Below the pieces are notes generated by a model. It was given only the letters and a program-made list of their open reading frames with translations. It had not been told where the DNA came from and made no database searches. This document shows positions 20,588 through 63,417 of a DNA stretch of 64,000 nt, piece by piece. The DNA is from Candidatus Bipolaricaulota bacterium. Its GTDB lineage: Bacteria; Bipolaricaulota; Bipolaricaulia; RBG-16-55-9; DRXL01. The stretch's first letter is position 1, and each line of letters starts with the position of its first letter. The stretch is taken from the NCBI GenBank assembly GCA_938091745.1, contig CALLJK010000002.1:26842-90841 (forward strand), written 5' to 3'. A program made the position numbers and the translations under genes.

Positions 20588-20659
20588 GGCCCTCATCCCG
20601 CCCTTGCGGGCACCCCTCTCCCGTAGTCACCTACGGGAGAGGGGTTGGGGGTGAGGGCC
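20588..20659. repeat. Palindromic element with GGCCCTCA.../...GGGTGAGGGCC termini enclosing a 14-bp hairpin (CCCCTCTCCCGTAG/TACGGGAGAGGGG). It overlaps the 3' end of the DUF5317 gene.
   Basis: Terminal inverted repeat and internal hairpins read directly. The termini match those of the family-1 elements at 29018 and 40600. Confidence 0.65.
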
Positions 20660-28577: not shown

Positions 28578-29438
28578 ATGCGCTCTGTATCGCTTGCCCC
28601 TGGACTGGAGTTGATAGACCTCGCACTCTTCTTGCCTAGGATGAGAGCGCTTGCTATCGCTGACATTCACTTGGGGATTGAAGACGCTCTCAAAGACGAG
28701 GGCGTTCTCGTGCCCAGACAGCATCTTGCCCAAGTGCAGCAGAGATTGGAGCGCATCTTCAAGGAGCTTGCTGTCACGCCCTCGGAGCCGTTACAAAAAA
28801 TAATAATTAATGGCGACCTGCGCCATCAGTTTGGCCCGCTCTCGCGCGTCGAACATAAAGAATCCAAAGAATTCTTGCGCTGGCTTGCTAACTGGACAGA
28901 GCAGATCGTGCTGGTTGAGGGCAATCACGACGGCTCGCTGAAACACTTTGCTAACGAACGCATCACGGTGACGAAACGCTATAGCGAAGGGGACTGCTGG
29001 TTCGTGCATGGGGATGAGGCCCTCACCCCCAGGCTTCGCCTGGACCGTCCATCTTCGCCAGCCTCTGGCTGGCGAAGGCAAAGCCCATGCGCAGCGTGCC
29101 CCAAGGGCGGGGTGAGGGCCTGGCTCGTCATCGGCCATGAGCACCCTGCTGTAGGCTTGCGCGATCCCGTCACCGGGCGCACAGAAGTTTATAAGTGCTT
29201 TCTCGTCGGAACTTTTCGAGAGTACGATCTCTTAGTCTTGCCGTCGTTCAATCAGCTCGTGCGGGGAAGCGATCTGCTCAGAGAGCAGCCCCTCTCACCG
29301 TTTGTGCAGCAGAGCGAACTCGAAGAGTTTTCAGTCTACGTTGTCTCCGATGACGGCTCTCTCTACGAATTTGGCCCTCTACGCCGATTGTTCCATTCCT
29401 CCTCCCTCTCCCCTGTGAGGGAGAGGGGCAGGGGGTGA
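28578..29438 (+). CDS. Calcineurin-like metallophosphoesterase carrying an in-frame palindromic-element insertion
   Basis: DIHLG, GDLRH, GNHD and VHGD motifs. Start taken as the Met at MRSVSL (28578), before the DIHLG motif; the ORF track starts at 28515 inside glnS. Residues encoded by the element are LTPRLRLDRPSSPASGWRRQSPCAACPKGGVRA. Confidence 0.75.
   Translation: MRSVSLAPGLELIDLALFLPRMRALAIADIHLGIEDALKDEGVLVPRQHLAQVQQRLERIFKELAVTPSEPLQKIIINGDLRHQFGPLSRVEHKESKEFLRWLANWTEQIVLVEGNHDGSLKHFANERITVTKRYSEGDCWFVHGDEALTPRLRLDRPSSPASGWRRQSPCAACPKGGVRAWLVIGHEHPAVGLRDPVTGRTEVYKCFLVGTFREYDLLVLPSFNQLVRGSDLLREQPLSPFVQQSELEEFSVYVVSDDGSLYEFGPLRRLFHSSSLSPVRERGRG
29018..29120. repeat. Family-1 palindromic element (12-bp TIR GGCCCTCACCCC/GGGGTGAGGGCC, internal 11-bp hairpin CTTCGCCAGCC/GGCTGGCGAAG) inserted inside the metallophosphoesterase CDS without breaking the frame
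   Basis: ~90% identical to the intergenic copy at 40600-40703. Confidence 0.8.
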
Positions 29439-29444
29439 GGGAGC
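29401..29444. repeat. Short G-tract palindromic element (CCCTCTCCC-CTGTGA-GGGAGAGGG followed by GCAGGGGGTGAGGGAGC) forming the 3' end of the phosphoesterase gene and the SD of folC
   Basis: Hairpin read directly. GAGGGAG sits 6 nt before folC ATG 29445. Confidence 0.6.
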
Positions 29445-30722
29445 ATGACCTACGAAGCGATGCTCCAGAAGCTTTATAATCTGAAGGGCACCGGGCTTGA
29501 TTTAGAACGCATTTTAGGTCTATTAGGGAACCCGCACAAAAGCTTTCGCGCGATTCGCGTCGCCGGCACCAACGGCAAGGGCTCGGTCTGCGCGTTTTTA
29601 GCGCAGATCTTGCAAGAAGCGGGCTTTCGCGTCGGGCTGTTCACCTCGCCCCATCTTGTCTATCCCGAAGAGCGCATATGCGTCAATGGGCGTGAGATCT
29701 CGCACGAGGAGTTTCACGCCCAGTTTGAGCGCATCTGGGCCGTGATCGAAGAGCTGTACGGAGACAGAAGCGAAGAGCACGCGCGGTTCTTTGAAGTGTT
29801 GACGCTCATGGCGCTCGATTACTTTCGCCAGCAAAAAGTAGACTGGGCGGTGATTGAGTGTGGTGTGGGCGCGCGCACTGACGCTACACGAGCCATTTCA
29901 GCGCCCGTCGCTGTCCTGACGAACGTAGAGCTCGACCATCGCGAATCGCTCGGGGAGACGATCGCGCAAATCGCGTATCAGAAAGCTGCTGTCGTCTCCG
30001 AGGGGGGACTGTTGATCACAGCTGAGTCCAAGCCCGAAGCGCTCGCGGAGATTGAACGCGAGTGTCGGCTGAAGAACGCGCGGCTTCTCCAAGTCGATCT
30101 CTCAAGGCTACAAGCGAAATCAAACAGTTGGGAGGGCCAACGCTTCGACTGGCGCGATTGGCGAGACTTAGAAATTTCGCTCTTAGGAAGCTACCAACTG
30201 CAGAATGCCGTCTTGGCTGTAGAAGCTATGGATGCTTTAGGCGAGCACGTTGTTCCTGAGAGCGCGATTCGCGCAGGGCTGCACACAGCGCGCTGGCCTG
30301 GTCGGATGGAGTTGCTCTGCAAAAACCCCTATGTTATGCTAGACGGGGCGAAGAACCCTGCGGGGATGCGGGCGCTGCGCACAGCGCTCTCCCCACTGGA
30401 ATACGAACGCTGTATAGTAGTCTTAGGGATATCTGATCGCAAGGACGCAGCAGCCATGATCCAAGAGATCGTGCCGGCAGCTGATAGAATAATCGTCACG
30501 CGCGCGGCGTTCCGTGGGGTCGATCCAGAATATTTAGCCTCTTTGATTCGGCCCTCTGGTGTGCCGTGTACTGTTATCTCAAGATCAGATAGAGCCATAG
30601 AATTGGCCCTCGCTCAAGCACACCACCGCGATCTCATCTGCGTGACCGGCTCGCTCTTTCTCGTGGGCGAGATCCGAGCCTGGTGGAAAGGACAGGAGCA
30701 TTCTTGTAAGAATTCTCATTGA
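29445..30722 (+). CDS. folC: Bifunctional folylpolyglutamate synthase / dihydrofolate synthase
   Basis: Mur-ligase family. Motifs VAGTNGKGS, and DGAKN/DGAHN-like. Confidence 0.88.
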   Translation: MTYEAMLQKLYNLKGTGLDLERILGLLGNPHKSFRAIRVAGTNGKGSVCAFLAQILQEAGFRVGLFTSPHLVYPEERICVNGREISHEEFHAQFERIWAVIEELYGDRSEEHARFFEVLTLMALDYFRQQKVDWAVIECGVGARTDATRAISAPVAVLTNVELDHRESLGETIAQIAYQKAAVVSEGGLLITAESKPEALAEIERECRLKNARLLQVDLSRLQAKSNSWEGQRFDWRDWRDLEISLLGSYQLQNAVLAVEAMDALGEHVVPESAIRAGLHTARWPGRMELLCKNPYVMLDGAKNPAGMRALRTALSPLEYERCIVVLGISDRKDAAAMIQEIVPAADRIIVTRAAFRGVDPEYLASLIRPSGVPCTVISRSDRAIELALAQAHHRDLICVTGSLFLVGEIRAWWKGQEHSCKNSH

Positions 30723-32779: not shown

Positions 32780-32854
32780 GGGCGCATAGCTCAGCGGGAG
32801 AGCGCCTGCTTCACACGCAGGAGGTCCGAGGTTCAAGTCCTCGTGCGCCCACCA
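32780..32854 (+). tRNA. tRNA-Val (anticodon CAC), CCA encoded
   Basis: Cloverleaf can be read directly. Acceptor GGGCGCA/TGCGCCC. D-arm GCTC-AGCGGGA-GAGC. Anticodon arm CCTGC-TTCACAC-GCAGG. T-arm CGAGG-TTCAAGT-CCTCG. Total 75 nt. Confidence 0.9.
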
Positions 32855-34475: not shown

Positions 34476-35357
34476 TCAAGCCCTCGCGCGATTGATTGCT
34501 TCTCTGAGGGCTATCGCGGCCTCGCGGGCAGCTTGTGCAAAGTCTTCGCCGTGGGAGGCAAAAATCACACTCCGTGAAACGTTTATGATCGCGAGTTCTT
34601 TGTAAGAATTCACGCTGTTCTTGATGGCTTGGGCGAGATCGCCTGCTTGCGCACCCACGCCCGGCACTAAGATAGGCATCTCGTCGCCCACGATCCGACG
34701 AACGATTGCTAATTCATCCGGGGCTGTCGCTCCGACGACGACTCCCACGTTCTTGCGCGTGTTCCATTCGCGGGCTTTCTCGGCCACGTACTGGTAGAGA
34801 GGCTTGCCTTCCTCACCCTCACCCCTCGAGCCCCCTCTCCCCTCCGAGGGAGAGGGGAAGGGGTGAGGGGGCAAGCAGTTGAGTTCTTGGAAATCTCGTG
34901 CTCCGGGATTGGAGGTGCGCACCAGAAGAAACGCGCACTTGTCTGAGTACTCTAAAAACGGTGCGACGGAGTCGAAGCCCATCAAGGGATTGACCGTCGC
35001 GGCGTCGAAGCGATAATACTCAAAGAGCGCTTTAGCATAAGCCCGCGCCGTATTTTCGATATCTCCGCGCTTGGCGTCCCCAATGACGGGGATCTCTGTG
35101 GGGATCAGCTCACGCGTTTTATAGAGAATCTCTAGCCCCACCGGGCCGAGCATCTCATAGAATGCGAGATTGGGTTTATACGCGCAGACGAGATCGCTCG
35201 TCGCTTCGATGATCGCCTTGTTAAACTCTAAAACAGCGTGAGCGCCGTGGCGCTCTCGCAGGAACGCTGGAATTTTTGAAAGCTCTGAATCAAGCCCGAT
35301 GCAAAGCCAACTGTTATTCCGGTGCGCAATCGCACACAGCTTGTCAAGAAAGCCCAT
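34476..35357 (-). CDS. pyrF: Orotidine 5'-phosphate decarboxylase (type 2) carrying an in-frame 25-codon palindromic-element insertion
   Basis: LCIGLD, VIGDAKRGDI and RTSNPGA motifs. The inserted segment CLPPHPFPSPSEGRGGSRGEGEEG lies between the RTSNPGARDFQEL and KPLYQYV blocks. Confidence 0.85.
   Translation of the reverse strand: MGFLDKLCAIAHRNNSWLCIGLDSELSKIPAFLRERHGAHAVLEFNKAIIEATSDLVCAYKPNLAFYEMLGPVGLEILYKTRELIPTEIPVIGDAKRGDIENTARAYAKALFEYYRFDAATVNPLMGFDSVAPFLEYSDKCAFLLVRTSNPGARDFQELNCLPPHPFPSPSEGRGGSRGEGEEGKPLYQYVAEKAREWNTRKNVGVVVGATAPDELAIVRRIVGDEMPILVPGVGAQAGDLAQAIKNSVNSYKELAIINVSRSVIFASHGEDFAQAAREAAIALREAINRARA
34802..34876. repeat. 75-nt nested palindromic element (TIR GCTTGCC/GGCAAGC, outer CTCACCCCT/AAGGGGTGAGG arms, inner CCCTCTCCC-CTCCGA-GGGAGAGGG hairpin) inside pyrF. 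It contains a G-quadruplex-type G-run array.
   Basis: Read directly. The segment CCTCCGAGGGAGAGGGGAAGGGGTGAGGGGGCAAG recurs identically at 63350-63386. Confidence 0.8.
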
Positions 35358-40599: not shown

Positions 40600-40703
40600 G
40601 GCCCTCACTCCCCAGGCTTCGCCTGGACCGTACATCTTCGCCAGCCACAGGCTGGCGAAGGTGAAGCCCACGCGCAGCGTGCCCGTAGGGCGGGGTGAGG
40701 GCC
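40600..40703. repeat. Intergenic full-length family-1 palindromic element (12-bp TIR GGCCCTCAC(T)CCCC/GGGGTGAGGGCC)
   Basis: ~90% identical to the intragenic copy at 29018-29120. Same internal CTTCGCCAGCC/GGCTGGCGAAG hairpin. Confidence 0.8.
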
Positions 40704-61631: not shown

Positions 61632-63269
61632 ATGACCGCGAAGCCCTGGCTCCGACACTACCCTGAAGATATCCCCCACACTCTGAATTACCCAGATAAG
61701 CCACTCTATGACTTCTTGGATCGCTCGGCAGAGCAGTACGAGAAAGCACCGGCACTGATCTTCTTCGGGCAGCGAATCTCGTACGGGCAGTTGCGTGAAC
61801 TCACTGATCGCTTTGCGGCAGCACTCGTGCAGATCGGGGCCAAGCCCGGCGAAAAGATCTCGCTGATGCTCCCCAATATCCCGCAGTTTGTCATCGCGTT
61901 CTACGGCGCGCTCAAGGCAGGCCTCACCGTCATCCAGACCAACCCCCTCTACACAGAAGACGAACTCCAAGTCATCTTGGGAGACTCCCAAGCTGAGACG
62001 CTCATCACTCTAGATCGCTTCTATGAAAAAGTCTTGCACATTCGAGGGCAGACGAACCTCAAGCGCATCATTGTTACGGGGGTGCACGAGTTCTTCCCTG
62101 GGCTGCTGCGATTGGGATATCTGCTCAAGGAGCGCCCAAAGAGAATAAGACCCGCTCCCCCCAATGTCTATCTCTTCTCCGAGCTGATTCGTAGCGCTCC
62201 CGCGCATCCCCCAGAGATCCCTGTACGTCCCAGTGATATCGCGCTCTTTCAGTATACGGGAGGGACGACAGGGATTCCAAAGGGCGCGATGCTCACCCAT
62301 AGAAACTTAGTGGCGAACACGCTGCAATCGTGCTCGTGGTTCCCGCGCGCCCGCATGGCTCAAGAGACATGTCTGTGCGTGCTGCCCCTCTTCCACGTCT
62401 ATGCTATGACCGTCGCGCTCAATCTCTCCATGGCGCTCGCTGCGGCGCTCATCTTGGTCCCGCGCTTCCAGATAGACGAACTCTTAAAGATTATAGATCG
62501 TGAGCGTCCGTCGCTCTTCCCCGGCGCGCCGACGCTGTACGCCGCTATTGCGAATCATCCTCGAGTAAAAGAGTATCACGTCAGCTCGATCAAAGCATGT
62601 CTGAGCGGCTCAGCGCCGCTTCCGTTAGAAGTCAAACGGCGCTTTGAGGAGCTGACCGGCGCGTCGCTCGTTGAGGGCTATGGGCTTTCAGAAGCTTCTC
62701 CCGTGACCCACTGCAACCCGCTCTATGGGCGACAAGTTCCGGGAAGCATCGGCATTCCCTTCCCCGACACCGATGCCAAGATCGTGGACCCCACGTCAGG
62801 TCAGGAGTTGCTCGTCGGGGAGATCGGGGAACTCGTCATCCAAGGCCCCCAGGTGATGGCCGGCTATTGGAACCGTCCCGAAGAGACAGCGATGGCACTG
62901 CGCGGCGGCTGGCTGCACACGGGCGATCTGGCTCGCATGGACGAAGACGGCTATTTCTATATCGTTGACCGTCTCAAAGAGATGATCATCTGTTCGGGGT
63001 TAAAAGTCTACCCGCGCGAGGTCGAAGAAGTCTTATATAAGCATCCCAAAGTGCTCGAAGCAGCCGTGATTGGGGTGCCCGATGCCTATCGTGGCGAGAC
63101 GGTGAAAGCATTGATTGTTCCCAAGCCCGGGACAAGCCCGACTGCTGATGAGATCAAAGCATTTTGCGCGGAGCACCTGGCGAAGTACAAAGTGCCCACG
63201 ATCGTCGAGTTTCGTGACTCACTGCCCAAGAGCATCGTGGGGAAGATATTGAAGAGAGATCTGCGATGA
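61632..63269 (+). CDS. fadD: Long-chain-fatty-acid--CoA ligase (ANL superfamily)
   Basis: YTGGTTGIPKGAMLTH AMP-binding motif and GYGLSEASP. Confidence 0.85.
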   Translation: MTAKPWLRHYPEDIPHTLNYPDKPLYDFLDRSAEQYEKAPALIFFGQRISYGQLRELTDRFAAALVQIGAKPGEKISLMLPNIPQFVIAFYGALKAGLTVIQTNPLYTEDELQVILGDSQAETLITLDRFYEKVLHIRGQTNLKRIIVTGVHEFFPGLLRLGYLLKERPKRIRPAPPNVYLFSELIRSAPAHPPEIPVRPSDIALFQYTGGTTGIPKGAMLTHRNLVANTLQSCSWFPRARMAQETCLCVLPLFHVYAMTVALNLSMALAAALILVPRFQIDELLKIIDRERPSLFPGAPTLYAAIANHPRVKEYHVSSIKACLSGSAPLPLEVKRRFEELTGASLVEGYGLSEASPVTHCNPLYGRQVPGSIGIPFPDTDAKIVDPTSGQELLVGEIGELVIQGPQVMAGYWNRPEETAMALRGGWLHTGDLARMDEDGYFYIVDRLKEMIICSGLKVYPREVEEVLYKHPKVLEAAVIGVPDAYRGETVKALIVPKPGTSPTADEIKAFCAEHLAKYKVPTIVEFRDSLPKSIVGKILKRDLR

Positions 63270-63285: not shown

Positions 63286-63417
63286 GGCCCTCACCCCCTT
63301 CCCCTCTCACCCTCACCCTTGTAGGGGCAGGTCTGAGACCTGCCCCTACCCCCTCCGAGGGAGAGGGGAAGGGGTGAGGGGGCAAGAGGGGTGGCGCAGC
63401 CGCCGGGGTGAGGGCCC
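63286..63417. repeat. Composite nested palindromic element: family-1 TIRs (GGCCCTCACCCCC ... GGGGTGAGGGCC) enclosing a 13-bp hairpin (GTAGGGGCAGGTC-TGA-GACCTGCCCCTAC) and the CCTCCGAGGGAGAGGGGAAGGGGTGAGGGGGCAAG module also present inside pyrF
   Basis: Read directly. It fills the fadD-PPTase intergenic region. Confidence 0.75.

What the first reader, a model, noticed from the sequence alone, without database searches (positions are those of the whole stretch)
34802..34876. In-frame 75-nt palindromic repeat element inside the essential pyrF gene (Rickettsia-RPE-like behaviour)
The OMP decarboxylase ORF is intact and carries all catalytic motifs. It contains 25 extra codons (CLPPHPFPSPSEGRGGSRGEGEEG) between the conserved RTSNPGA-DFQEL and KPLYQYV blocks.

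The encoding DNA is a nested palindrome: GCTTGCC...CCCTCTCCC-CTCCGA-GGGAGAGGG...GGCAAGC. Its core, CCTCCGAGGGAGAGGGGAAGGGGTGAGGGGGCAAG, recurs verbatim at 63350-63386 in an intergenic spacer. The same peptide-coding phase (PPHPFPSPSEG) appears in both copies.

So a mobile or repeated DNA element has been inserted in phase into a conserved enzyme. That is the hallmark of Rickettsia palindromic elements and is rarely documented elsewhere.

The G-runs (GGG/GGGG/GGGG/GGGGG) also fit a canonical G-quadruplex motif.
Basis: partly seen in the sequence, partly recalled or inferred. Interest (0 to 1): 0.8.

Follow-up and report, generated by a model that had tools for sequence, protein, structure and literature searches.

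The report
Triplex-motif repeat inserted inside pyrF
A 63-base copy of a widespread bacterial palindromic repeat (known as BoxC, PIT or "triplex motif") sits in frame inside the gene for a core pyrimidine-synthesis enzyme and adds 21 floppy amino acids to a loop, which shows that this supposedly intergenic repeat family can live inside proteins much as the Rickettsia palindromic elements do.

Summary
pyrF (34476-35357, minus strand) is an intact type-2 OMP decarboxylase. It carries a clean 63-nt, 21-codon insertion at 34812-34874, not 75 nt or 25 codons. A 92%-identical syntenic ortholog and 22 others lack it; one other strain has it.

The insert is not a new family. It is a palindromic copy of the G/C-rich intrastrand-triplex motif (BoxC/PIT/TM, Holder 2015). 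That motif occurs across many phyla and was reported as always intergenic in E. coli.

The 64-kb window holds at least six such copies. One is an older in-frame insertion in a metallophosphoesterase gene. Another supplies that gene's last codons and its stop codon.

The encoded peptide is Pro/Ser/Gly/Arg/Glu-rich and predicted disordered, in the β6-α6 loop. The behaviour is RPE-like; membership in RPE is not supported.

Best reading: a passive, selection-filtered in-frame insertion of a known repeat. Its allele appears to have moved between strains on a ~170-nt recombination patch.

New lead: in other bacteria these motifs bracket DUF559 (Vsr-like) endonuclease genes. This includes a DUF559 unit embedded in frame in MetRS of many proteobacteria, so DUF559 is a candidate mobilising enzyme.

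The parts
34476..35357 (-). pyrF, type-2 orotidine-5'-phosphate decarboxylase, 293 aa, intact
34812..34874 (-). Copy A. A 63-nt palindromic TM (BoxC/PIT) element inserted in frame, giving codons 162-182 (LPPHPFPSPSEGRGGSRGEGE). On the coding strand it reads C2 CCCTCACCCC - C1 CCCCTCTCCC - loop - G1 GGGGAGAGGGG - G2 GGGGTGAGGG. A triplex-motif arrangement is present on both strands.
   Evidence: clean 63-nt gap in empty alleles L002 and L003; coordinates; fold; motif match to the TMECO table
34802..34811 (.). Native pyrF flank (GCTTGCCTTC) that extends the hairpin by pairing with the element's GGCAAGC end. It is not part of the insertion. The C->T change at the junction is a synonymous GAG->GAA.
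63286..63416 (+). Copy B. An intergenic composite TM element downstream of ORF 61632-63269. It holds the 35-nt exact match to copy A (63352-63386) and a nested GTAG...CTAC hairpin (63321-63349).
29401..29444 (+). Copy C. A TM element at the 3' end of the metallophosphoesterase gene. It encodes the last ~12 codons (..SSSLSPVRERGRG), and its GGGTGAGGG block provides the TGA stop. folC starts at 29445. The copy is present in the window and L124 and absent from L125.
20588..20659 (+). Copy D. A 72-nt palindromic TM element between ORFs, with GGCCCTCATCCC / GGGGGTGAGGGCC ends and a GTAGTCACCTAC loop.
29018..29120 (+). Copy E. An older in-frame TM-armed element inside the metallophosphoesterase (Nuclease MPE-like) gene 28578-29438, between the HGDE and GHEHPA motifs. 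It is shared with L124, L125 and P0121 and absent from more distant homologs. Its interior has been replaced by the copy-F type.
40600..40703 (+). Copy F. A 104-nt variant between ORFs, with the same outer arms (GGCCCTCAC.CCC / GGGGTGAGGGCC). It is about 92% identical to copy E over the shared ~104 nt (my count).

Best explanation
Window 34812-34874 is a secondary, in-frame insertion of a 63-bp palindromic member of the BoxC/PIT/TM family, the G/C-rich intrastrand-triplex-motif repeat. It lies in the β6-α6 loop of PyrF.

Shown:
- The element belongs to a multi-copy family in this genome and in many phyla.
- The insertion is polymorphic among close relatives and has a clean empty site.
- It is 3n long and is read in one of the four (of six) stop-free frames.
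- The peptide is Pro/Ser/Gly/Arg/Glu-rich and modelled as disordered. The catalytic residues and the rest of the fold are untouched.
- A second, older in-frame copy and a stop-codon-donating copy lie 5 kb away.

Inferred:
- Copies land widely, and selection keeps only intragenic ones that preserve frame, lack stops and fall in permissive loops. The peptide is a passive linker, not a new function.
- The filled allele in this genome shares one origin with that of strain L001. It sits on a ~170-nt patch in an otherwise L002-like (empty-allele) gene, so it most likely arrived by short-patch homologous recombination rather than by a fresh insertion.

The original insertion mechanism is unknown, and there is no target-site duplication. 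The most likely route is a structure-specific nuclease or repair pathway acting on the hairpin/triplex ends. DUF559 endonucleases are the candidate enzyme; see the novel case.
For: Identity of the gene.

Insertion and empty site:
- A clean 63-nt gap appears in L002 and L003; the insert in L001 differs at 1 of 63 positions.
- 23 of 24 aligned orthologs lack the segment. The loci are syntenic.

Family identity:
- The blocks CCCTCTCCC / GGGAGAGGG / GGGTGAGGG, with 2-6-nt loops, match the 23 TMECO sequences and the BoxC/PIT description in PMC4666352.
- The motif is found in Chloroflexota, Planctomycetota, Acidobacteriota, Xanthomonas, Pseudomonas and Bipolaricaulota, among others.

Copy number and other coding copies in the window. 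Distant metallophosphoesterase homologs lack the 22-35-aa segment.

Structure: residues 163-182 have pLDDT<50 and lie between helix 151-157 and helix 187-198. The rest of the model has mean pLDDT 85.6.

Permissive site: a Chloroflexi ortholog (P0058) has an unrelated 16-aa insertion at the same position.

Frames: four of six frames are stop-free.

Mosaic patch: over ~55 nt upstream, the insert and ~45 nt downstream, the window differs from L001 at only three scattered positions. Outside that patch it is L002-like.

In-frame TM copies elsewhere:
- HemW-like protein (L112), with Radical_SAM and HemN_C on either side.
- MetRS (L008).
- A SEFIR/TIR-TPR protein (L111).
- A soil-metagenome ORF (L207).
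Sources.
Against: - No target-site duplication or other transposition signature is visible, so 'mobile' rests on distribution and polymorphism, not on mechanism.
- Translation of the insert is not shown.
- The mosaic pattern could be an assembly chimera of co-occurring strains, since L001 and L002 come from one sample. Mosaicism is also pervasive along the whole 2-kb alignment, so the patch is not special evidence for homing.
- Whole-genome copy number could not be measured. The source genome was not recovered.
- The exact 28-mer has only one hit in JGI metagenomes.
Confidence: 0.85

Rival explanations
1. The insert is an adaptive loop extension. The 21 residues were recruited for a function such as regulating the lid over the pyrimidine site, oligomerisation or thermostability, and they are kept by positive selection.
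For: - The site follows the substrate-contacting TSN strand on the catalytic face of the barrel.
- The insert differs at only 1 of 63 positions between two strains whose flanking DNA is ~87% identical.
- A Chloroflexi ortholog has independently lengthened the same loop.
Against: - The high similarity is explained by a shared recombination patch that also covers ~100 nt of flank.
- The peptide is simply the translation of a repeat found between ORFs elsewhere in the window.
- It is modelled as disordered.
- The closest relatives do without it.
Confidence: 0.08
2. The gene is inactivated or in decay. The insertion is a lesion in a pyrF that is no longer needed, or that is backed up by another copy or by salvage.
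For: - A -58 kcal/mol hairpin inside an mRNA and a 21-aa loop near the active site could be harmful.
- The full genome was not available to exclude a second pyrF.
Against: - The ORF is intact and full length, and all residues invariant across orthologs are kept.
- The same allele is intact in a second strain (L001).
- The flanks carry mostly synonymous differences.
- Neighbouring genes and synteny are conserved.
Confidence: 0.04
3. The segment is not translated. It is bypassed or removed, for example by ribosome hopping over the hairpin or by RNA processing, so the protein is wild-type length.
For: A very stable, perfectly placed hairpin spans the whole insert.
Against: - The insert is exactly 3n long and is read in a stop-free frame, which bypass would not require.
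- Other in-frame copies of different lengths and loops exist in other genes.
- No take-off/landing codon pair or intron/intein signature was seen; Rfam gave only sub-threshold hairpin noise.
Confidence: 0.02
4. The palindrome arose locally, by replication slippage or fold-back synthesis at the native GCTTGCC/GGCAAGC sequence. Its resemblance to other copies is convergent.
For: Eight nt of the native left flank are the reverse complement of the element's right end plus junction.
Against: - There is a 35-nt exact identity with an intergenic copy 28 kb away, with none expected by chance.
- The block-for-block match to a family is conserved from E. coli to Chloroflexota.
- The insert is not an inverted copy of pyrF flanking sequence beyond those 8 nt.
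Confidence: 0.01

Closest known systems
BoxC / PIT elements / G/C-rich intrastrand triplex motif (TM, TMECO): Bachellier 1990s; Hoyne & Maher 2000; Holder et al. NAR 2015 (PMC4666352)
   Same: It has the same three blocks (CCCTCTCCC, GGGAGAGGG, GGGTGAGGG), the same order, short loops and palindromic 'double' forms. It is multi-copy, occurs in many phyla, and marks loci that vary between close strains.
   Different: In E. coli all 23 copies are intergenic, and the authors found no coding copies and no mobility genes. Here a copy is in frame inside pyrF, another is in frame in a metallophosphoesterase, and one donates a stop codon. The Bipolaricaulota copies also carry extra GGCC-tipped outer arms and variable interiors.
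Rickettsia palindromic elements (RPE; Ogata et al. 2000, as summarised in PMC10969869)
   Same: It is a palindromic repeat that inserts in frame into unrelated housekeeping genes. It adds a peptide at a loop without destroying the fold, and it is also found between genes.
   Different: The sequence family is unrelated and the host phylum differs. This element is 63-104 nt and G/C-rich, against ~100-150 nt for RPEs. The frequency per genome here is unknown. RPEs encode a conserved peptide, whereas here the peptide is low-complexity P/S/G/R/E.
Intragenic ERIC and other MITEs carrying ORFs (Delihas 2007, cited in PMC10969869)
   Same: These are small non-autonomous inverted-repeat elements that are occasionally found inside genes as in-frame fusions.
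   Different: MITEs normally show target-site duplications and a known transposase partner. Neither is seen here.
REP elements and their RAYT (IS200/IS605-like) transposases (PMC3733652)
   Same: Short G/C-rich palindromes occur singly or as inverted pairs, with no target-site duplication. There is a proposed pairing of many short hairpins with one protein gene bracketed by them.
   Different: The pyrF copy has no GTAG/CGTC head. The bracketed protein found here is a DUF559 PD-(D/E)xK nuclease, not a Y1 transposase. REPs are extragenic.
Homing-endonuclease genes and inteins embedded in essential genes
   Same: In related loci a nuclease ORF (DUF559) sits in frame inside metG. It has a patchy distribution among close relatives and sits at a fixed site.
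   Different: There is no splicing domain and no LAGLIDADG, HNH or GIY-YIG fold, and homing is not shown. The pyrF copy has no ORF at all.

Membership tests
BoxC / PIT / TM intrastrand triplex motif | Pyrimidine block, short loop, complementary purine block, short loop (1-6 nt), then a second mirror purine block on one strand | tested here: met
   Plus strand: CCCCTCTCCCC-TCCGA-GGGAGAGGGG-AA-GGGGTGAGGGGG (34831-34871). The coding strand carries the same arrangement with loops TCGGA and GCTCGA.
BoxC / PIT / TM intrastrand triplex motif | Consensus blocks CCCTC(T/G)CCC, GGGAGAGGG and GGGTGAGGG, as in the 23 E. coli TMECO copies | tested here: met
   Direct comparison with Table 1 of PMC4666352. 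The same 9-mers occur in all six window copies.
BoxC / PIT / TM intrastrand triplex motif | Repeated in the genome and present across distant bacteria | tested here: met
   Six loci in 64 kb.
BoxC / PIT / TM intrastrand triplex motif | Intergenic location (reported for E. coli, not a definition) | tested here: not met
   Copies A and E lie inside ORFs in frame, and copy C overlaps a gene end. This is where the finding departs from the published description.
BoxC / PIT / TM intrastrand triplex motif | Forms a stable intrastrand triplex as single-stranded DNA in vitro | not testable with these tools
   ViennaRNA predicts only Watson-Crick hairpins. The published CD and NMR data are for the E. 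coli sequences.
Rickettsia palindromic elements (RPE) | Sequence similarity to one of the RPE families, with Rickettsia as host | not tested
   No RPE sequence was compared. The host is Bipolaricaulota-like, and the element matches the TM consensus instead. From general knowledge RPEs are ~100-150 nt and unrelated in sequence.
Rickettsia palindromic elements (RPE) | Palindromic repeat inserted in frame in protein-coding genes, at sites compatible with the fold | tested here: met
MITE | Terminal inverted repeats | tested here: met
   The whole element is an inverted repeat. TM arms bracket variable interiors in copies B, D, E and F, and in L060, L066 and L067.
MITE | Target-site duplication flanking the insertion | tested here: not met
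   Filled versus empty pyrF alleles show no duplicated bases at the junctions.
MITE | An autonomous partner whose ends match the short element | tested here: inconclusive
   DUF559 ORFs are bracketed by TM ends in L008, L026, L027, L209 and four IMG/VR loci, and E. coli ycjD lies next to a TM. None was found in the window or in ~60 kb of related loci, and no activity is known.
REP / RAYT | GTAG or CGTC tetranucleotide at the head of a 20-40 bp palindrome | tested here: not met
   Copy A has no such head. A separate GTAG...CTAC hairpin is nested in copy B, and copy D has a GTAG..CTAC loop.
REP / RAYT | A Y1 (IS200/IS605-like) transposase gene flanked by the repeats | not tested
   Window ORFs were not screened for PF01797.
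Canonical G-quadruplex motif | Four runs of at least 3 G separated by 1-7 nt | tested here: met
   Present on both strands of copy A. Six of the nine such motifs in the window are TM copies. Folding preference is not testable here; published NMR on the family indicates triplex, not G4.

The most novel reading that the evidence does not exclude
The BoxC/PIT/TM motifs may not be free-standing structural oddities. They may be the cis-acting ends, or the homing sites, of a very widespread family of small selfish units whose protein is the DUF559 (Vsr-like PD-(D/E)xK) endonuclease. On this reading, ORF-less palindromic copies such as the one in pyrF are miniature or solo derivatives.

The ends translate into stop-free Pro/Gly-rich linkers in four of six frames. 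That would let both the short copies and the full nuclease-bearing unit persist in frame inside essential genes.

Evidence so far:
- DUF559 ORFs sit at the dyad centre of TM pairs in Beta-, Alpha- and Gammaproteobacteria and Gastranaerophilales.
- TM 9-mers are 12.5-fold denser within 250 bp of DUF559 ORFs than in the more distant flanks, across 35 IMG/VR loci.
- E. coli's only detected DUF559 gene, ycjD, ends on a TM block and has TMECO #9 168 bp downstream.
- A TM-DUF559-TM unit is embedded in frame in the MetRS linker in about two thirds of the best 120 hits to a MetRS that carries it (counted from the Pfam column; the query itself held DUF559). The closest DUF559-less relatives carry a solo TM at that site.

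The 2015 study reported finding no mobility function near these motifs.
Probability: 0.35. Interest if true: 0.8.

Novelty: new variant of a known kind. Interest (0 to 1): 0.6.

Why it matters
BoxC/PIT/TM motifs have been known for about 30 years and occur in hundreds of genomes. In the literature searched they still have no accepted function or means of spread, and they were described as intergenic.

This locus gives a clean filled-versus-empty example of such a motif inside a core metabolic enzyme. There are two further coding copies within 6 kb. So the family can remodel proteins in the way RPEs do in Rickettsia, but in a distant, free-living phylum and probably in many others.

The DUF559 association, if it holds, would give a testable enzyme for an orphan repeat and a function for a large domain of unknown function.

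There are practical consequences too. Gene callers and homology searches will meet PSP..GRG..GEG-type low-complexity inserts that are repeat-derived. A -58 kcal/mol hairpin, or a potential triplex, inside an essential gene may be a hotspot for replication stalling and recombination.

Tried and rejected
A 41-aa concatenation of the two open frames found only 12 word-sharing candidates and no hit, so a database-wide census of in-frame copies by peptide was not possible.
- The exact PyrF sequence is not on record in the assembly index, so the source genome could not be fetched.
- blastn of copy D against E. coli genomes found nothing, although E. coli has 23 TM copies. This is probably the low-complexity filter and the short words, and it is not evidence of absence.
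- The single metagenome scan, using the lineage-specific 28-mer, returned one locus only.
- Rfam gave nothing at gathering thresholds except a tRNA. At permissive thresholds it gave only far-sub-threshold miRNA-like hairpin matches.
- Homing was considered as the explanation for the recombination patch and not adopted. Mosaicism between the three strains runs along the whole 2-kb alignment, and strain-mixed assembly cannot be excluded.
- The E. coli fabI-ycjD-sapF locus was examined for a clean filled/empty pair. Genomes without ycjD carry a different gene block, with the breakpoint ~40 bp from the TM. That is consistent with TM-linked variability but is not a precise excision.
- No common target sequence was found among the pyrF, metG and other insertion sites.
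- RPE, REP/RAYT, intein and intron readings were rejected. See the membership table.
Full report
**What is there**

The minus-strand ORF 34476-35357 encodes a 293-aa protein.
- It matches Pfam OMPdecase (E=4e-25) and the Leishmania OMP decarboxylase structure 3qw3 (E=1e-41).
- An AlphaFold model built on 25 orthologs has mean pLDDT 85.6. It superposes on 3qw3_A with TM-score 0.92 normalised to the target.
- The closest named relatives are Candidatus Bipolaricaulota/Acetothermia.
- Residues of the catalytic motifs are invariant in the alignment: D94, K96, D99, T148-S149-N150-P151, Q237 and R262.

**The insertion and its true boundaries**

Of 24 orthologs aligned, only one (P0001, 293 aa, 90% identical) has the extra segment. 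P0002 is 92% identical over the shared residues, is 272 aa long and lacks it, as do all the others.

The loci are syntenic, with trkH-trkA on one side and an MFS transporter on the other. P0001 and P0002 come from the same ENA sample.

At the DNA level the empty alleles show one clean gap of exactly 63 nt.
- Empty allele: AACTGC|GAGGGCAAG.
- Filled allele: AACTGC[TTGCCCCCTCACCCCTTCCCCTCTCCCTCGGAGGGGAGAGGGGGCTCGAGGGGTGAGGGTGAG]GAAGGCAAG.

In window coordinates the insert is 34812-34874, or codons 162-182, LPPHPFPSPSEGRGGSRGEGE.

The arm GCTTGCC and the terminal GC are present in alleles without the insert. There is no target-site duplication.

**Palindrome and repetition**

The region folds into one long hairpin. 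RNA dG is -58.2 kcal/mol (z=-3.8) and DNA dG is -31.6 (z=-4.2); no shuffle folds as well (arms).

A 35-nt stretch is repeated exactly at 63352-63386, with none expected by chance.

A census of the 9-mers GGG[AT]GAGGG and CCCTC[AT]CCC, followed by reading the sequence, gives six related loci in the 64 kb:

| Copy | Coordinates | Location |
|---|---|---|
| A | 34812-34874 | pyrF, in frame |
| B | 63286-63416 | intergenic composite |
| C | 29401-29444 | gene end |
| D | 20588-20659 | between ORFs |
| E | 29018-29120 | inside a metallophosphoesterase gene |
| F | 40600-40703 | between ORFs |

**What family it is**

A literature search on the sequence blocks led to Holder et al., NAR 2015 (PMC4666352).
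- The blocks CCCTC(T/G)CCC - loop - GGGAGAGGG - NN - GGGTGAGGG are the 'TM' (TMECO) motif. It was earlier called BoxC and then PIT (potential intrastrand triplex).
- The paper reports 23 copies in E. coli MG1655, 'always located intergenically', and occurrence in more than 260 genomes.
- It reports stable triplex formation by the single strand in vitro, no triplex signal in vivo, and no promoter or terminator activity.
- It reports raised local variability between strains and no associated mobility genes.

Copy A carries this arrangement on both strands, sharing one central hairpin. This is the 'palindromic TM' form.

Hits came from Chloroflexota, Planctomycetota, Acidobacteriota, Armatimonadota, Xanthomonas, Pseudomonas, Bipolaricaulota and others.

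Rfam has no family for it.

**Other coding copies, here and elsewhere**

*Copy C.* It lies between the metallophosphoesterase gene and folC.
- It is present in the window and in relative L124 and absent from L125, where the two genes overlap by ATGA.
- In the window it encodes the last ~12 residues, and its GGGTGAGGG block supplies the TGA stop.

*Copy E.* It lies inside the same gene, between the HGDE and GHEHPA motifs.
- The close relatives L124, L125 and P0121 carry a TM-derived segment there (LTPSPSPVGQPRERGGRKAGVRAK in L124).
- Homologs at 35-50% identity go straight from one motif to the other. Most of the 150 best representatives match in two stretches that skip query residues ~149-182.
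- In the window the interior of copy E has been exchanged for the interior of copy F. I count about 92% identity over the shared ~104 nt, with identical outer arms. This points to conversion between copies.

*Outside this lineage,* stop-to-stop ORFs spanning TM sites in the fetched loci include real proteins:
- a HemW-like radical-SAM protein with two TM peptides between its Radical_SAM and HemN_C domains (L112);
- a SEFIR/TIR-TPR protein (L111);
- a MetRS (L008).

The single JGI metagenome hit to the lineage-specific 28-mer also lies inside a 365-aa ORF, in frame. That ORF has no Pfam match.

**Where the peptide sits**

In the model the insert (residues 163-182) has pLDDT below 50. It lies between a short helix (151-157) that follows the TSN strand (141-147) and the next barrel helix (187-198).

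By general TIM-barrel logic this is the β6-α6 loop on the catalytic face. This is an inference; I could not measure distances.

A Chloroflexi ortholog (P0058) has an unrelated 16-aa insertion at the same position, so the loop tolerates length changes.

Four of the six reading frames of the element are free of stops. All of them translate to P/S/G/R/E/L-rich peptides.

**How the allele got here**

The window, L001 (filled) and L002 (empty) are about equally distant from one another, at 87-89.5% DNA identity. Column-by-column comparison shows the following:
- The window is almost identical to L002 both upstream and downstream.
- Over a patch of ~170 columns it instead follows L001, with only three scattered differences, and differs from L002 at about 13 sites. 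The patch covers ~55 nt upstream, the 63-nt insert and ~45 nt downstream.
- At several of these sites L002 shares its state with the outgroups L003, L124 and L125, so the states shared by the window and L001 look derived.

So the two filled alleles share one origin. The simplest account is that the insert moved between lineages on a short homologous-recombination tract.

Two cautions apply. Mosaic blocks occur all along the 2-kb alignment. Metagenome assemblers can also splice co-occurring strains. I therefore do not read this as evidence for homing.

**A lead on mobility**

Three of the 120 TM loci contain a DUF559 ORF, from a betaproteobacterium (L008), a Beijerinckiaceae MAG (L026) and a Gastranaerophilales MAG (L027). 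In each the ORF is bracketed on both sides by TM motifs in inverted orientation.

*MetRS.*
- In L008 the whole TM-DUF559-TM unit lies in frame in MetRS, between the anticodon-binding and tRNA_bind domains.
- In a search with that MetRS (which itself carries DUF559), about two thirds of the best 120 hits have PF04480 at this place. I counted this from the Pfam column. They include the isolate Methylocaldum szegediense.
- In all nine DUF559-bearing sequences I read, the domain is flanked by ..PSPSGRGAGGEG.. or a close variant such as ..PLPPGEGRGGEG.. on the N side, and by ..SPSPPTPLPEGEG.. or a variant on the C side.
- The DNA shows perfect TM motifs at both ends (L209).
- The nearest DUF559-less MetRS relatives (89-90% identical) carry a TM-derived peptide at the same site (P0274, P0276, P0292). 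In L208 the DNA is a single, partly degenerate TM.

*E. coli.*
- K-12's only detected DUF559 gene, ycjD, ends ...SPSP* on a CCCTCTCCC block.
- It is followed by a partial duplicate of its own 3' end and then TMECO #9, 168 bp downstream.
- ycjD is present in 3378 of 5426 complete E. coli genomes. In genomes without it, homology breaks ~40 bp from the TM.

*Association and cargo.*
- In 35 IMG/VR loci encoding close DUF559 homologs, TM 9-mers number 32 in 14.8 kb within 250 bp of the ORF, against 11 in 63.3 kb farther out. That is 12.5-fold, across 8 of 35 loci. The binomial p of 4e-15 is overstated because the motifs cluster.
- TM pairs also bracket non-coding cargo (L060, L066, L067).

*Limits.*
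- Twenty-five papers mention DUF559, and none links it to repeats.
- I found no DUF559 in the window or in about 60 kb of related Bipolaricaulota DNA.
- For this genome the link therefore remains a hypothesis. It could also run the other way, with DUF559 homing into TM pairs.

**Comparison and verdict**

In behaviour this is the RPE phenomenon: a palindromic repeat tolerated in frame in housekeeping proteins. In-frame MITE fusions are also known for ERIC and other elements (PMC10969869).

By membership it is a BoxC/PIT/TM element, not an RPE, REP or classical MITE. It has no target-site duplication and no GTAG head.

The G-quadruplex pattern is present on both strands. For this family, however, the published NMR supports a triplex, and the hairpin dominates the predicted folds.

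The finding is real and well delimited. It extends a known repeat family into coding sequence. Its main added value is the clean filled/empty pair and the DUF559 lead.

Noticed in passing
L008 2123-2637; L209 2283-2755; proteins P0271-P0390: A DUF559 (PF04480) endonuclease domain bracketed by TM motifs is embedded in frame in the MetRS linker, between Anticodon_3 and tRNA_bind. This holds in many Beta- and Gammaproteobacteria, including Methylocaldum szegediense. The closest DUF559-less relatives carry a solo TM at the same site.
   Followed up: partly
L126 (E. coli NC_000913.3 1351040-1351830): ycjD is the only DUF559 gene detected in E. coli K-12. It ends on a CCCTCTCCC block and is followed by a partial duplicate of its own 3' end and then TMECO #9. 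ycjD is present in only 3378 of 5426 complete E. coli genomes. In genomes lacking it, homology stops ~40 bp from the TM.
   Followed up: partly
window 63321-63349: A perfect GTAG...CTAC hairpin (GTAGGGGCAGGTCTGAGACCTGCCCCTAC) is nested inside TM composite B. It is REP-like (GTAG-headed), occurs once in the window, and is absent from all fetched loci.
   Followed up: partly
window 29018-29120 and 40600-40703: Two ~104-nt elements share TM outer arms and are about 92% identical (my count). One lies in frame inside the metallophosphoesterase gene, where relatives have a classical TM interior. This suggests ectopic conversion between copies within a coding region.
   Followed up: partly
window 34802-34811 versus 34867-34876: Eight nt of the ancestral pyrF flank (GCTTGCCC) are the reverse complement of the element's right end plus junction (GGGCAA|GC). 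A C->T change also sits exactly at the left junction. This could be chance or microhomology-guided insertion.
   Followed up: no
protein P0041 (pyrF ortholog, 283 aa): Its C-terminal tail ...LPCPSPFTERERER looks like a TM translated past the normal stop. This would be another pyrF allele altered by the same repeat family at its 3' end.
   Followed up: no
protein P0058 (Chloroflexi pyrF ortholog): It has an independent 16-aa insertion (REGIGGTRPGRPSEEE) at the same loop position as the window's insert. Its origin was not examined.
   Followed up: no
L060 1660-2260; L066 6740-7350; L067 1170-1520: Pairs of inverted TM motifs bracket 170-530 bp of non-coding cargo. In L060 these appear as two tandem ~330-bp units. 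They look like MITE-like elements with TM ends.
   Followed up: partly
L207 414-441 (soil metagenome contig Ga0137409_10105146): This is the only JGI metagenome hit to the lineage-specific 28-mer. It lies in frame inside a 365-aa ORF (..APSGAQGHSLRGRGEGVRGVS..) that has no Pfam match.
   Followed up: partly
window 32780-32851: A tRNA gene (Rfam RF00005, 71 bits) lies at 32780-32851. Its 3' end overlaps the listed end (32833) of the ORF for the transporter-like membrane protein next to pyrF.
   Followed up: no
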